A stretch of DNA of 64,000 nucleotides from the NCBI RefSeq assembly GCF_009914755.1, contig NC_060936.1. One strand, given 5' to 3'. The DNA is from the human T2T-CHM13v2.0 reference genome, Homo sapiens. How positions within the stretch are numbered: position 1 is the stretch's first letter; each line of letters starts with the position of its first letter. Under the pieces are notes generated by a model. The model saw only the letters and a list, made by a program, of their open reading frames with translations. It had not been told where the DNA came from and did not search any database. This document shows positions 51,838-56,093 of the stretch, one piece after another. The translations under genes and the position numbers were made by a program.

Positions 51838-51958
51838 GCTCATTCATTTATTTAACAAGTATTTATGGAGTACCAACTCTATGCCAGTGTGGAGAATTAA
51901 CTCTAAACAAAACAGCTGAGGTCCCTGGCCTGATGAAGCTTATGTTCTTGAGTTGGGA
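51838..51958 (-). mobile_element. L2 3' end interrupted by MER50
   Basis: tcattcatttatttaacaagtattt..gtccctggcc..atgaagcttatgttct..ggga. Confidence 0.75.
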
Positions 51959-52980
51959 TGTTACCAGAGGCGAATCTGTAGGGGTCTGCAGCAACCTCAG
52001 TTCTTGCCTCTTTAGAAGAAAGAATTTGACCAAGGGGCAGACAGTAAAAGGAGAGACTGAGGCAAGTTTTAGAGCAGGAGTGAAAGTTTATTGAAAAGCT
52101 TTGCTGGCCGGGCGCGGTTGCTCACACCTGCAATCCCAGCACTTTGGAAGGCTGAGGCAGGCGGATCACCTGAGGTCAGGAGTTCAAGACCAGCCTGGCC
52201 AAAATGGTGAAACCCTGTCTCTACCAAAAATACAAAAATTAGCTGGGCGTGGTGGCATGCACCTGTAATCCCAGCCACTTGGGAGGCTGAGAGGCAGGAG
52301 AATCGCTTGAACCCGGGAGGCAGAGGTTGCAGTGAGCCGAGATCATGCCCGTGCACTCCAGCCTGGGCGACAGAGTGAGACTCTGTCTCAAAAAAAAAAA
52401 AAAAAAAAAAAAAAAGCTTCACTGCAGAAACAAAAGGAAGGAAAGTATACTTGGAAGAGGATTAAGTGGGTGACTTAAAAGACAAGTTTGACCTTTCGAC
52501 TTGGGGTTTTATATGTGGGCATGCTTCTGGGGTCTTACGTCTCTTCTTTCCTGATTCTCCCCTTGGGATGGGCTGTCCTGTCCGCATGAGCAGTGGCTGC
52601 CAGTGCTTGGGAGTGGAGCATGCGCAGTGTGTTTACTGGAGTTGTACCCATGCTCACTCGAGACGTTCTTCCCTTACCAGCCCAATGTCCCTTAGGAGGT
52701 CATATTCCAGTTAAACTCCACCACTTTACCTCTTAGGGCACATGTGTGAGCCCACTCACCCAACTGCTAAGATCTTACCAGGAAGCTACTGATCACCAGT
52801 TTCAGGTTTTTCCCTTTGATAGGACGACTGCGTTTCCCTGGCACTGGCTGGACCAATTATTATTTTAGAGAGACAGTTAAGAACCACCTGACCATCACCT
52901 GATGGTCCCCTGACATTCCTGGTGGTGGGTGGGGGGCCTTTCCTGCCCTGTTCATGTCTGACTAGCTACCTACTGTAACA
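51959..52980 (-). mobile_element. MER50 ERV1 solo LTR containing an AluS (52106-52415)
   Basis: Minus strand starts TGTTACAGTAGGTAGCTAGTCAGACATG and ends GGTAACA; homologous to 54501-55225. Confidence 0.88.
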
Positions 52981-53329
52981 GTATAAATATCTTTTTGACA
53001 CTTTCATTTACAGGAAAGAAAATGCAAGAATGCTTGGAAAAAAAAAGACCCAAATACCAAAATTTGGACAAACTAAACAAGTAAAAGAAGAAGTGGCAGA
53101 AAGAAAACTTAGACTTCTTGAAATAATTAATGAAAGGATGTTTTGAAATAGCAAGTTTGTCCAGTATAGGTATAATGAAATTTGATTTACCAAAATTCCA
53201 TTTTTTTCCAAGAATTTGTGGTATAACATGAAGCTTACCTTTCACAGCCAAGGCAAGGTCATCCCCCCCTTGGAGGACATGGTGCTGCTGATGACTCTTG
53301 AGACATCTCAACCTACAGTGGCTTCAAAA

Positions 53330-54500
53330 CTTATGCCTTCAGCTCTGCCTCCTCCCCACTCCCAAGCTTCAAACTCAAATATTCAGCTGCCTGCCTGTCT
53401 ATAGATCCTCTTGGATGTATAATAGCATCTCAGCTCCAGCATAACCAAAAGATAACTCTTGATTTTCACCCAAATCTTGTTTTTGGTTTTTTTCCCCTTA
53501 GTCTTTACCACTTCCTTAAATGGCAACACCTATTCAATTGCTCAAGCCAAAAACTTAGGTGGCACCCATATTCTTTATTGTGGCTATCAATAGCAAAGGC
53601 AGCTATTGTTTAATTGAGGGTAACAGAGACCCAAAATAACTGTGACTTAAAAAAATAGAAATCTACTTTGCTTATTTCTTCCTCTGGTAGAGAGGGAGGT
53701 AGGTAGTCCAGACTTCCTAGTGTATCTAAACTCCATGAACTCCTCGGGGATGCAGGCACCTTTCAGGTCATTGTTCCACCATCCCTGGATGTGATCTACC
53801 TCTTCATGACACAATACGACAGCAAAAGCACCAGTCATTGCATCATGGGTCCAAGTGGCAGGACCCCTGTAGGAAGGAGGCATGGAAAAGAAGGGGCAGA
53901 GAGCATATACTAGCTATCTTTTAAGCAAGGTAATTTTGCTAAGACTTCACTGGCAGAACTTAGTCACATGACTACATCACCTAACTATAAGAGAGGCTGG
54001 GAGATGTAGTTTTTATTGTAGGAAGTCATGTGCTTAGCTAAAACTTGGAAGTTTTATTGCTATGAAAGAATAGACCAGATATTGGGGTTAGTAGGAATGG
54101 CCAAAAGTTCCTGCCGTATCTGGGTTGTAAACTCTAGGCTACTGGGCCCCTGCCTGCTATTTGACCCCACCTCCTCGACCATGTTCAACACAATGTAGCC
54201 ATTCTGGCCTCTTCTAATGTCCTTTGAATACACCAGGCTTATCCCTGCCTTAGAGCCTTTGTGCTGCCACTCTCTGCCCCTGAGATGCACCCTCCAGATT
54301 TGCACATGGCTGACTTCTCATTATTCCAGTTTTGGCCCAAATGTCAGATCCTTACTGGGCCTTCCCTTGACCACCCTTTCTAAGGCAGTGTTTCTGCACC
54401 AGCCAGCTTCGATCACATAACCCCATTTCATTTTCCTCAAAGTACTCCAGAGTAACTCTCTGAAAACATCTTCCACTTTGTGTGTGTGTATGTGTCTCCC
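53330..54500 (+). mobile_element. L2 body (split by an ancient MLT1 at ~53580-54115)
   Basis: cttggatgt.taatagcatctca, gctcaagccaaaaact; ctggcctctt..ctgccttagagcctttg..ccctgaccaccct. Confidence 0.72.
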
Positions 54501-55225
54501 TGTTCCAGTGAGTAGCTAGTCAGACATGAGCAGGGCAGGAGAGGCCCCGCTCCAACCCAAGCAGGAATGTCAGGTGGCCATCAGGTGATGGTCAGGTGGT
54601 TAACTGTCTCTCTAAAATAATAATTGGTTGCAGCCAGCCCCAGAAAAAGGCAGTCTCCCTATAGAAAAGAAAAACCTGAAACTGATTATCAGTAGCTACC
54701 CGATAAGATCTCAGGAGTTGGGAGACTGGGCTCACACATGAGCACTAAGGGGGAAAATGGCGGAGTTTAACTGGCACATGACCTCCTAGGGACATTGGAC
54801 TGGTAAAGGAGTAACACTGTAAGTGAGCATGGGTACAACTCTAGTAAACACACTGCGCACGCTCCCCTCTCAAGCGCCAGCAGCCCACCCCGAGGGAAGA
54901 ATCGGGAGAAGGAACGCAAGACCCTGGAAGTATGCCAACATATAAAACCCCAAGTCAAAGGTCAAACCGTGCACTTGCCTTTCACGTTGCCCGCTTGGCC
55001 CTCTTCCAAATGTATTTTCCTGCCTTTTGTTTCTGCGGTAAAGCTTTTTAATCAACTTTCATTCCTGCTCTACAGCTTGCCCCAGTCTCTCCTTCTGCCT
55101 TCTGCCCCTTAGTCGAATTCTTTCTTCTGAGGAGGCAAAAATTGAGGTTGCTGCAGACCCCTACAAATTTGCTGCCGATAACATATTTTGGTACCATGTG
55201 AGTTGGATAATTTTCACCACTAACA
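54501..55225 (+). mobile_element. MER50 ERV1 solo LTR
   Basis: TGTTCCAGTGAGTAGCTAGTCAGACATGAGCAGGGCAGG start; TATAAAA box near 54941; ends CTAACA. Confidence 0.88.
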
Positions 55226-56093
55226 ATACGATCTAAGAAACATGAAACTGCAGCATCAAAAAAGAGCTTTCTGATCCTGACACCTGCCTGGAGTGAACTC
55301 CATCTGAAAAATCCTGGTCTATTAGCCCTGGCAGGTGCTTCTCAGATCTACTAGGCCAGTGTTTCACAGGCATCAATTTATGGAATGGCCCCTGGATTTC
55401 AGGGAATATTTTCTCACTGGTTAAACTTTTAGTGCTGAAGTTATTTACATTTGACCCACCTAGACACAAATGGACAAACACCTTATTCTCCATGGTCAAG
55501 CCAAAACTGGGAATTTTTTTTACGGATCTATATATAAATATAATTTCTTTATGAGGATTTGTGGATTGTATTAAGGATAATGAATAAAAAAGAAAGCTTA
55601 ATAAAAAGTTCCTAAGTCTACTGAGGAATGTAATGTGTGCTTAGGATGTTATTTGTCTGTGCTGAGACATACACTCACACATAACTATGCAATTTTCATG
55701 TGCAATGGTCAACAATTTAGGTATTTTATAATTCCCACTCTCATCTGACAGATAAGAAAACAGGCCACCAAACGTGTGTGTGTGTGTGTATGAGATGTGT
55801 ATATATGAGATGTATATATATGAGATTATATATATGAGACGTATATATGTATATATAAGATGCATGTGTATACATATATGTTAAATGTATATGTTAAAAT
55901 ATCTAAAAAACACACACTGGCCCTATCTCTTCCATATATATGCAGTCATCCACACCAACCCTAGGCTGTGAGGCTTCTCTCTCCAGAGAGAGGAAGGCTC
56001 CATCTAGAGCAAAAAGGTCATTCATCAGATTTGGGTATTGAAGTAGCATGAAAAGCCAGAATTTACCAAGAGAGAAAAGGATTTCTCTATTTC

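What the first reader, a model, noticed from the sequence alone, without database searches (positions are those of the whole stretch)
51955..55229. ~1.5 kb inversion between two inverted MER50 LTRs, recorded by swapped target-site duplications
Seen: MER50 copy A (51959-52980, minus) is flanked by GGGA (51955-58) and GTAT (52981-84). Copy B (54501-55225, plus) is flanked by TCCC (54497-500) and ATAC (55226-29). Neither LTR has a matching TSD. However, TCCC is the reverse complement of GGGA and GTAT of ATAC, so flipping the spacer restores GGGA-[A]-GGGA and ATAC-[B]-ATAC. Independently, the minus-strand L2 ending at 51958 (..gttcttgagttGGGA) continues as the reverse complement of the spacer's far end (GGGAgacacatac..), which now lies on the plus strand. 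Established: ERV1 integrase makes 4-bp TSDs, and recombination between inverted repeats inverts the spacer. Inference: two independent solo LTRs recombined, the spacer was inverted, and both present LTRs are reciprocal chimeras. The inversion could be lineage-specific, polymorphic or recurrent.
Basis: partly seen in the sequence, partly recalled or inferred. Interest (0 to 1): 0.85.

Follow-up and report, generated by a model that had tools for sequence, protein, structure and literature searches.

The report
Old inversion between two inverted retroviral LTRs
Two ancient retroviral LTR remnants lying head to head recombined long ago and flipped the 1.5 kb of DNA between them, a well-known kind of rearrangement that is unusually cleanly recorded here.

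Summary
LTR A (51959-52980, minus strand, with a later Alu inside) is flanked by GGGA and GTAT. LTR B (54501-55225, plus strand) is flanked by TCCC and ATAC. Each 4-mer is the reverse complement of one beside the other LTR.

- **Boundaries:** all four LTR ends were set independently, from other genomic copies. A-B homology stops at 55183. The last 42 nt of B is a tail seen in many other copies, which carry matching 4-bp duplications at that long end.
- **L2 test:** a profile built only from other L2 copies matches 51839-51953 (+) and 54445-54197 (-) at successive profile positions. With the spacer end flipped it gives a single hit across the junction (125.5 bits). In the present order the hit stops at the junction.
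- **Not testable:** the ATAC junction has no repeat to check, and no primate or pangenome sequence was available.
- **Age:** the arms are now about 84% alike and the longest exact run is 26 nt, so the event is probably old and fixed, not recurrent.

Verdict: a real inversion by recombination between two inverted retroelements. It is a new example of a known kind and of modest interest.

The parts
51826..51958 (-). 3' tail piece of an old L2 LINE, cut off at 51958.
   Evidence: Profiles built from other L2 copies match 51839-51953 at profile positions 60-188 and 51831-51956 at positions 51-190. The 27-nt motif at 51840-51866 has 837 genomic matches against 2 for the reversed control.
51955..51958 (.). 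GGGA, the flank at the U5 end of LTR A. It is the reverse complement of TCCC at 54497-54500.
51959..52980 (-). LTR A, the short form. Its U3 end (TG...) is at 52980 and its U5 end (...CA) is at 51959.
   Evidence: Inverted-repeat blocks against B. Hit of the B query at 79-85% identity. Its termini read like those of other copies.
52106..52423 (+). Alu inserted into LTR A after the LTR was in place, with a poly-A tail and its own direct repeats of about 12 nt.
   Evidence: (A run at 52390-52415).
52981..52984 (.). GTAT, the flank at the U3 end of LTR A. It is the reverse complement of ATAC at 55226-55229.
52985..54496 (.). The spacer, which now lies inverted relative to its original orientation.
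   Evidence: Inferred from the swapped flanks and from the L2 continuity test.
53934..54086 (+). An unnamed old interspersed repeat inside the spacer.
   Evidence: 23 other genomic matches at 70-87% identity. It is not matched by my L2 profiles.
54157..54500 (+). The continuation of the same L2, now on the opposite strand to the piece at 51826-51958.
   Evidence: Profile positions 242-508 match 54445-54197 on the minus strand. Positions 176-554 match 54513-54157 on the minus strand. In the flipped order there is a single hit over positions 60-508 at 125.5 bits.
54497..54500 (.). TCCC, the flank at the U3 end of LTR B.
54501..55183 (+). LTR B, the part homologous to A and to short-form copies (TG...CA).
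55184..55225 (+). The 42-nt tail of the long LTR form. It holds a stretch that looks like a tRNA-His primer-binding site (my recall), followed by a second copy of the U5-end motif ending in CA.
   Evidence: The tail is shared by 8 of 28 sampled copies (7 by blast extent, L020 by eye). Homology among the tailed sequences compared stops at its end. 25 of 39 other hits to a tail-bearing query reach its last base. Duplications match at this end.
55226..55229 (.). ATAC, the flank at the long U5 end of LTR B.

Best explanation
Two elements of the same LTR family integrated about 1.5 kb apart in opposite orientations.

- One element had short-form LTR ends and landed in the 3' tail of an L2, duplicating the target GGGA/TCCC.
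- The other had long-form LTR ends and duplicated the target ATAC.

While the copies were still very similar, homologous recombination between the two inverted elements flipped everything between the crossover points. Whether they were solo LTRs or still proviruses at that time cannot be told.

Each present LTR therefore keeps one original flank and has gained, in reverse complement, a flank of the other element. The L2 is split into two pieces on opposite strands.

**Shown:** the inverted LTR pair, the four termini, the swapped flanks and the L2 continuity.

**Inferred:** homologous recombination as the mechanism, the chimeric nature of A and B, and an early date.
For: 1. **Swapped flanks.** GGGA/TCCC and GTAT/ATAC are reverse complements at exactly the four boundaries. 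With boundaries fixed beforehand, chance is about (1/256) squared.
2. **Boundaries fixed from other copies.**
   - U3 starts and the short U5 end: of 10 short copies, 1 has a perfect 4-bp duplication and 4 match in 3 of 4 bases.
   - Long U5 end: of 12 assessable long copies, 6 are perfect and 4 match in 3 of 4 bases.
   - Chance of a match in at least 3 of 4 bases is about 5% per copy.
3. **L2 continuity.** The own locus was excluded from the profile. Separate hits lie at profile positions 60-188 (plus strand) and 242-508 (minus strand). The flipped order gives one hit over positions 60-508 at 125.5 bits. The unflipped order stops at the junction at 55.3 bits.
4. **Same subgroup, not exclusive sisters.** A and B fall in one subgroup of the family (85/92 support, 7 rows) but are not exclusive sisters. 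This fits two insertions from related sources.
5. **Published signature.** Mismatched duplications on inverted elements are the published signature of retrotransposon recombination-mediated inversion (PMC2603318, passages read).
Against: - The ATAC junction rests on the 4-mer alone. No repeat spans it, so host continuity could not be checked there.
- No outgroup or second haplotype was available, so the un-inverted state has never been seen.
- No crossover or chimerism could be demonstrated.
- Two insertions of one family within 1.5 kb are uncommon.
- The duplication tallies were read by eye, and half of the short copies (5 of 10) showed no match.
Confidence: 0.85

Rival explanations
1. One provirus, later rearranged. 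B with its tail would be the 5' LTR plus the first 42 nt of the leader, A would be the 3' LTR, and TCCC would be the single proviral duplication. A later inversion, with one break in the provirus and one in host DNA at ATAC, together with loss of the internal region, would give the present order.
For: - TCCC flanks the U3 end of B and the U5 end of A, as in a normal provirus.
- The tail begins where a primer-binding site would lie and resembles one (the resemblance is my recall).
- A and B were sisters at 98/89 support in the first tree.
- Their 16% divergence lies just below the 17-32% reported for LTR pairs of this group (PMC4724089, passage read).
Against: - The sister pairing dissolved when 8 of A's own 39 best hits were added.
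- 13 of 39 other copies score higher against A than B does.
- The tail is a recurrent terminal unit with matching duplications elsewhere, not a leader fragment peculiar to this locus.
- The model needs breaks exactly at A's U3 terminus and exactly at the tail's end.
- It also needs a chance ATAC/GTAT match.
Confidence: 0.04
2. The inversion was made at integration rather than by later homologous recombination. Ends of two viral DNA molecules would have joined crosswise to two nearby target sites, so the host segment was inverted from the start.
For: All four junctions are precise LTR termini with 4-bp duplications, as integrase makes them. The product would be identical in sequence to the recombination product.
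Against: It needs four coordinated half-reactions from two molecules. I know of no described germline example (recall; not searched for). Recombination between inverted repeats is the ordinary route (PMC2603318).
Confidence: 0.06
3. There was no inversion. The 4-mer matches would be chance, and the two L2 pieces would be separate L2 insertions in opposite orientation.
For: 4-mers are short. Pair 2 shows one further chance match among 441 slid pairs.
Against: Two independent matches fall at pre-defined boundaries. The two L2 pieces also abut at the same profile position and join into one alignment that scores 125.5 bits, against 54.8 and 50.1 bits apart.
Confidence: 0.02

Closest known systems
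Retrotransposon recombination-mediated inversion (RRMI) between inverted Alu or L1 copies, Lee et al. 2008 (PMC2603318; passages read)
   Same: Two same-family elements in inverted orientation sit at the breakpoints. Both lose matching target-site duplications, and the duplications match crosswise. The mechanism is non-allelic homologous recombination.
   Different: Here the elements are ERV LTR units with 4-bp duplications, not Alu or L1 with 7-20 bp. The event is probably tens of millions of years old rather than specific to human or chimpanzee.
Rearrangements between HERV copies detected by mismatched flanks, Hughes and Coffin 2001 (recalled; seen only as an entry in the reference list of PMC3625200)
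   Same: Mismatched flanking duplications of retroviral LTRs are used as a record of recombination between separate elements.
   Different: As I recall it, that work concerned HERV-K proviruses and mostly events between elements. I did not read the paper, so details are unverified.
Inversions by ectopic recombination between inverted transposon copies in other organisms: Galileo in Drosophila (PMC2775673) and insertion sequences (PMC3004938). Only search listings and abstract starts were seen.
   Same: Inverted repeats of a mobile element serve as the substrate for an inversion.
   Different: These are other element classes and other hosts, and they are young events.

Membership tests
Retroelement recombination-mediated inversion | Two homologous elements in inverted orientation at the two breakpoints | tested here: met
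   Arms 51958-52981 and 54500-55184 are 81-95% complementary in 8 collinear blocks. They are 84% identical over 611 columns.
Retroelement recombination-mediated inversion | Neither element has matching duplications, and the flanks match crosswise in reverse complement | tested here: met
   GGGA/TCCC and GTAT/ATAC. The boundaries were set from other copies.
Retroelement recombination-mediated inversion | Host sequence becomes continuous when the spacer is flipped | tested here: met
   Met at the L2 junction: one profile hit over positions 60-508 at 125.5 bits in the flipped order, against a hit that stops at the junction in the present order. The ATAC junction could not be tested because no repeat lies there.
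Retroelement recombination-mediated inversion | The ancestral, un-inverted state is seen in an outgroup or another haplotype | not testable with these tools
   No primate genomes or human pangenome were held.
Retroelement recombination-mediated inversion | Both elements are reciprocal chimeras with a mappable crossover | tested here: inconclusive
   Long and short forms each need 5-6 changes on the trees. The sites that A and B share against the other copies (19) are spread from position 45 to 665. No switch point is visible.
MER50 LTR (ERV1) | Match to the curated family model | not testable with these tools
No repeat library was held. What I can show is a dispersed family with at least 2135 first-look candidates, of which 40 were scored at 74-79% identity.
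MER50 LTR (ERV1) | TG...CA termini and 4-bp target duplications | tested here: met
   Termini were read. Perfect 4-bp duplications are seen in L007, L002, L003, L005, L028, L091 and L094.
5' and 3' LTR of one provirus | The two LTRs are each other's closest relatives | tested here: not met
   13 of 39 other copies score higher against A than B does. The A-B pair is not resolved as sisters once 8 of those copies are added.
5' and 3' LTR of one provirus | Same orientation, with retroviral internal sequence between them | tested here: not met
   The LTRs are inverted. The spacer holds an L2 piece and another old repeat, and otherwise gave no multi-copy matches.

The most novel reading that the evidence does not exclude
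The inversion arose after the first splits among living simians, so its orientation differs between lineages (for example New World monkeys against catarrhines, or among apes). Alternatively it has flipped more than once. Either way it would be a clean, datable marker that moved an LTR end next to the L2 tail that RefSeq marks as an enhancer (51820-51989).
Probability: 0.25. Interest if true: 0.45.

Novelty: new member of a known kind. Interest (0 to 1): 0.3.

Why it matters
The locus is a tidy, internally verifiable example of an LTR-mediated inversion, but it teaches no new mechanism.

- The pre-inversion order can be read from one genome alone, because an older L2 was split by one of the insertions.
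- If orthologous primate loci differ in orientation, it would be a homoplasy-poor phylogenetic marker.
- It would also give a date for how long diverging LTRs stay able to recombine.
- It lies between TXNRD1 and CHST11 and abuts a RefSeq-annotated enhancer. This LTR family is reported to supply trophoblast enhancers (PMC10250217, abstract and passages). I have no evidence that the inversion changed regulation.

Tried and rejected
**L2 junction, pairwise searches.** blastn and nhmmer of the two L2 flanks against single L2 copies never reached the junction.

**First L2 profile.** A MAFFT-based profile was contaminated by Alu sequence and was discarded.

**Extending the L2 profile to the ATAC junction.** This failed. 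Beyond about profile position 930 the seed copy holds a younger, unrelated repeat. L2 homology in the spacer is detectable only down to 54157.

**Crossover mapping.** Subfamily markers gave no crossover: long and short forms are interspersed on the trees.

**A-B sister pairing.** The first tree gave 98/89 support. I reject it as a sampling effect, because it dissolved.

**My own recall.** My recollection that the family is Eutheria-wide was contradicted by PMC10250217, which calls it Simiiformes-specific.

- Searches 36, 37, 38, 45, 47 and 56 produced no paper describing this locus. They were not designed to prove absence.
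Full report
**What is there**

Reading the sequence and the repeat scan show a long inverted repeat. The arms at 51958-52981 and 54500-55184 align in eight collinear blocks that are 81-95% complementary.

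- **Copy A** lies on the minus strand. Its U3 start (TG...) is at 52980 and its U5 end (...CA) is at 51959. It is interrupted by an Alu at about 52106-52423, which has a poly-A tail and its own direct repeats.
- **Copy B** starts at 54501 on the plus strand.

**The one discrepancy: the end of B**

A-B homology stops at 55183, not 55225. This mattered, because if B ended at 55183 its flank would be TATT and the second match would vanish.

I searched the window's own genome with B. Forty of 2135 first-look candidates were scored, which gave 28 other copies plus A.

| Where homology to B ends | Copies (of 28) |
|---|---|
| B position 682-687 (short end) | 11 |
| B position 690-725 (runs on into the tail) | 7 |
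| B position 656-672 (stops earlier) | 10 |

- One of the 11 short-end copies (L020) carries the tail with an internal deletion, by my reading.
- Among the tailed sequences compared (B and seven of those copies; L020 was not included), mutual homology stops about 40-48 nt after the short end. No retroviral internal sequence follows.

*Duplications at the long end.* L002, L003, L005 and L028 match perfectly. L020 and L021 match in 3 of 4 bases. L015 and L018 do not match. I then fetched six more tailed copies:
- L091 and L094 are perfect.
- L089 and L090 match in 3 of 4 bases.
- L092 and L093 lack their 5' ends in the stretch I held.

*Duplications at the short end.* L007 is perfect. L006, L008, L009 and L016 match in 3 of 4 bases. 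L004, L012, L014, L019 and L026 show no match.

These flanks were read by eye, and in some copies I re-read a degenerate LTR start by a few bases. Chance of a match in at least 3 of 4 bases is about 5% per copy.

A query that includes the tail found 39 other hits, and 25 of them reach its last base. That query favours tailed copies.

**Is it more than chance?**

With the four boundaries fixed from other copies, two independent 4-mer matches have a chance of about (1/256) squared. When both boundaries of a pair are slid by up to 10 bases (441 combinations per pair), pair 1 matches only at offset (0,0). Pair 2 matches at (0,0) and once more at (9,9).

**The L2 test**

The motif at 51840-51866 has 837 genomic matches, against 2 for its reversed control.

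I started from one long copy (L073) and ran four rounds of nhmmer. The database held 29 loci from that search and 23 other loci (some hold L2 pieces), with Alu masked only in the 29 motif-search segments and the own locus excluded. The resulting profile rests on 41 hits.

| What was scored | Result |
|---|---|
| Window, plus strand | 51839-51953 at profile positions 60-188 (E 4.6e-18, 54.8 bits) |
| Window, minus strand | 54445-54197 at profile positions 242-508 (E 1.3e-16, 50.1 bits) |
| Flipped order | one continuous hit over positions 60-508, 125.5 bits |
| Present order, LTR A left out | hit stops at the junction (positions 60-194, 55.3 bits) |
| Control with another flank | only positions 312-508 (47.7 bits) |
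| Second, longer profile | 51831-51956 (+) at positions 51-190; 54513-54157 (-) at positions 176-554 |

For the flipped order, a script placed the left flank directly before the flipped spacer end with one copy of the 4-mer. The sequence was not printed.

So the two L2 pieces abut on the profile and lie on opposite strands.

**What could not be tested**

- The stretches beside the ATAC junction (52981-53900 and 55184-55700) gave no multi-copy matches. That junction therefore rests on the 4-mer alone.
- No primate or pangenome sequence was available.

**One provirus or two elements?**

The tail begins where a primer-binding site would be, and it resembles a tRNA-His site (my recall). I therefore weighed the idea that B is a 5' LTR and A is the 3' LTR of one provirus sharing the TCCC duplication.

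*For it:*
- A and B were sisters at 98/89 support in a tree of B's best hits.
- Their 16% divergence lies just below the 17-32% reported for LTR pairs of this group (PMC4724089, passage read).

*Against it:*
- With A as the query, 13 of 39 other copies score higher than B does.
- With 8 of those copies added, A and B fall into an unresolved group of seven rows (85/92 support), not an exclusive pair.
- The one-provirus model needs breaks exactly at two LTR-type termini and a chance ATAC match.
- The tail is a recurrent terminal unit elsewhere in the genome.

I give this reading about 4%. Two integrations followed by recombination is the simple reading.

**Chimerism and crossover**

- Nineteen columns have A and B agreeing against at least 60% of the other copies. 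They are spread from position 45 to 665.
- A alone differs at 38 columns and B alone at 40.
- Long and short forms need 5-6 changes each on the trees.

No crossover can be placed. Chimerism follows from the model but is not shown.

**Age**

- The family is described as Simiiformes-specific (PMC10250217, abstract and passages).
- The end branches of A and B (0.11-0.13) equal the family median (0.13-0.14).
- The arms are 84% identical over 611 columns, and the longest exact run is 26 nt.
- Lee et al. note that sequence identity governs such events (PMC2603318).

I infer that the inversion happened early, while the copies were near-identical. It is probably fixed in humans. Whether it predates all splits among living simians is open.

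**Compared with what is known**

This is the published signature of retrotransposon recombination-mediated inversion (PMC2603318). That signature was described for Alu and L1. As I recall, a related use of mismatched flanks was made for HERV-K by Hughes and Coffin 2001, which I saw only in a reference list.

The locus is a new example of a known kind. My literature searches turned up no description of it, but they do not prove absence.

Noticed in passing
window 55184-55225; loci L002, L003, L005, L015, L018, L020, L021, L028, L089-L094: This LTR family comes in a short form and in a long form that is 42 nt longer. The tail holds a stretch resembling a tRNA-His primer-binding site (my recall), followed by a second copy of the U5-end motif. 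In L092 another such stretch follows directly after the long end. The two forms are interspersed on the trees. One possible reading is a leader with two primer-binding sites, where priming at the second one lengthens U5. This is untested.
   Followed up: partly
window 56198-56345: A perfect tandem duplication of a 74-nt unit: two copies at 100% identity. That is young-looking for non-coding DNA, so it may be recent or polymorphic.
   Followed up: no
window 53934-54086: An old interspersed repeat in the spacer with 23 other genomic matches at 70-87% identity. It is not matched by my L2 profiles, and its family is not identified.
   Followed up: no
window 51820-51989: The RefSeq enhancer feature in the hub's table spans the L2 tail and the first 31 nt of LTR A. 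It therefore straddles one inversion junction.
   Followed up: no
window 50720-50974 (minus) and 50552-50638 (plus): Weak further matches to the L2-tail profiles upstream of the finding (E 6e-4, 8e-6). They are probably separate old L2 or MIR-like fragments.
   Followed up: no
loci L024/L027, L025/L029, L022/L030: Pairs of near-identical LTR copies (end branches 0-0.07) on the X and Y contigs, on contig 10, and between contig 3 and the Y contig. Several further Y copies appear. These are segmental duplicates rather than separate insertions.
   Followed up: no
window 55789-55848 and 56094-56152: A 15-nt tandem array (4 copies) and an (AT)n run of 59 nt lie downstream of LTR B.
   Followed up: no
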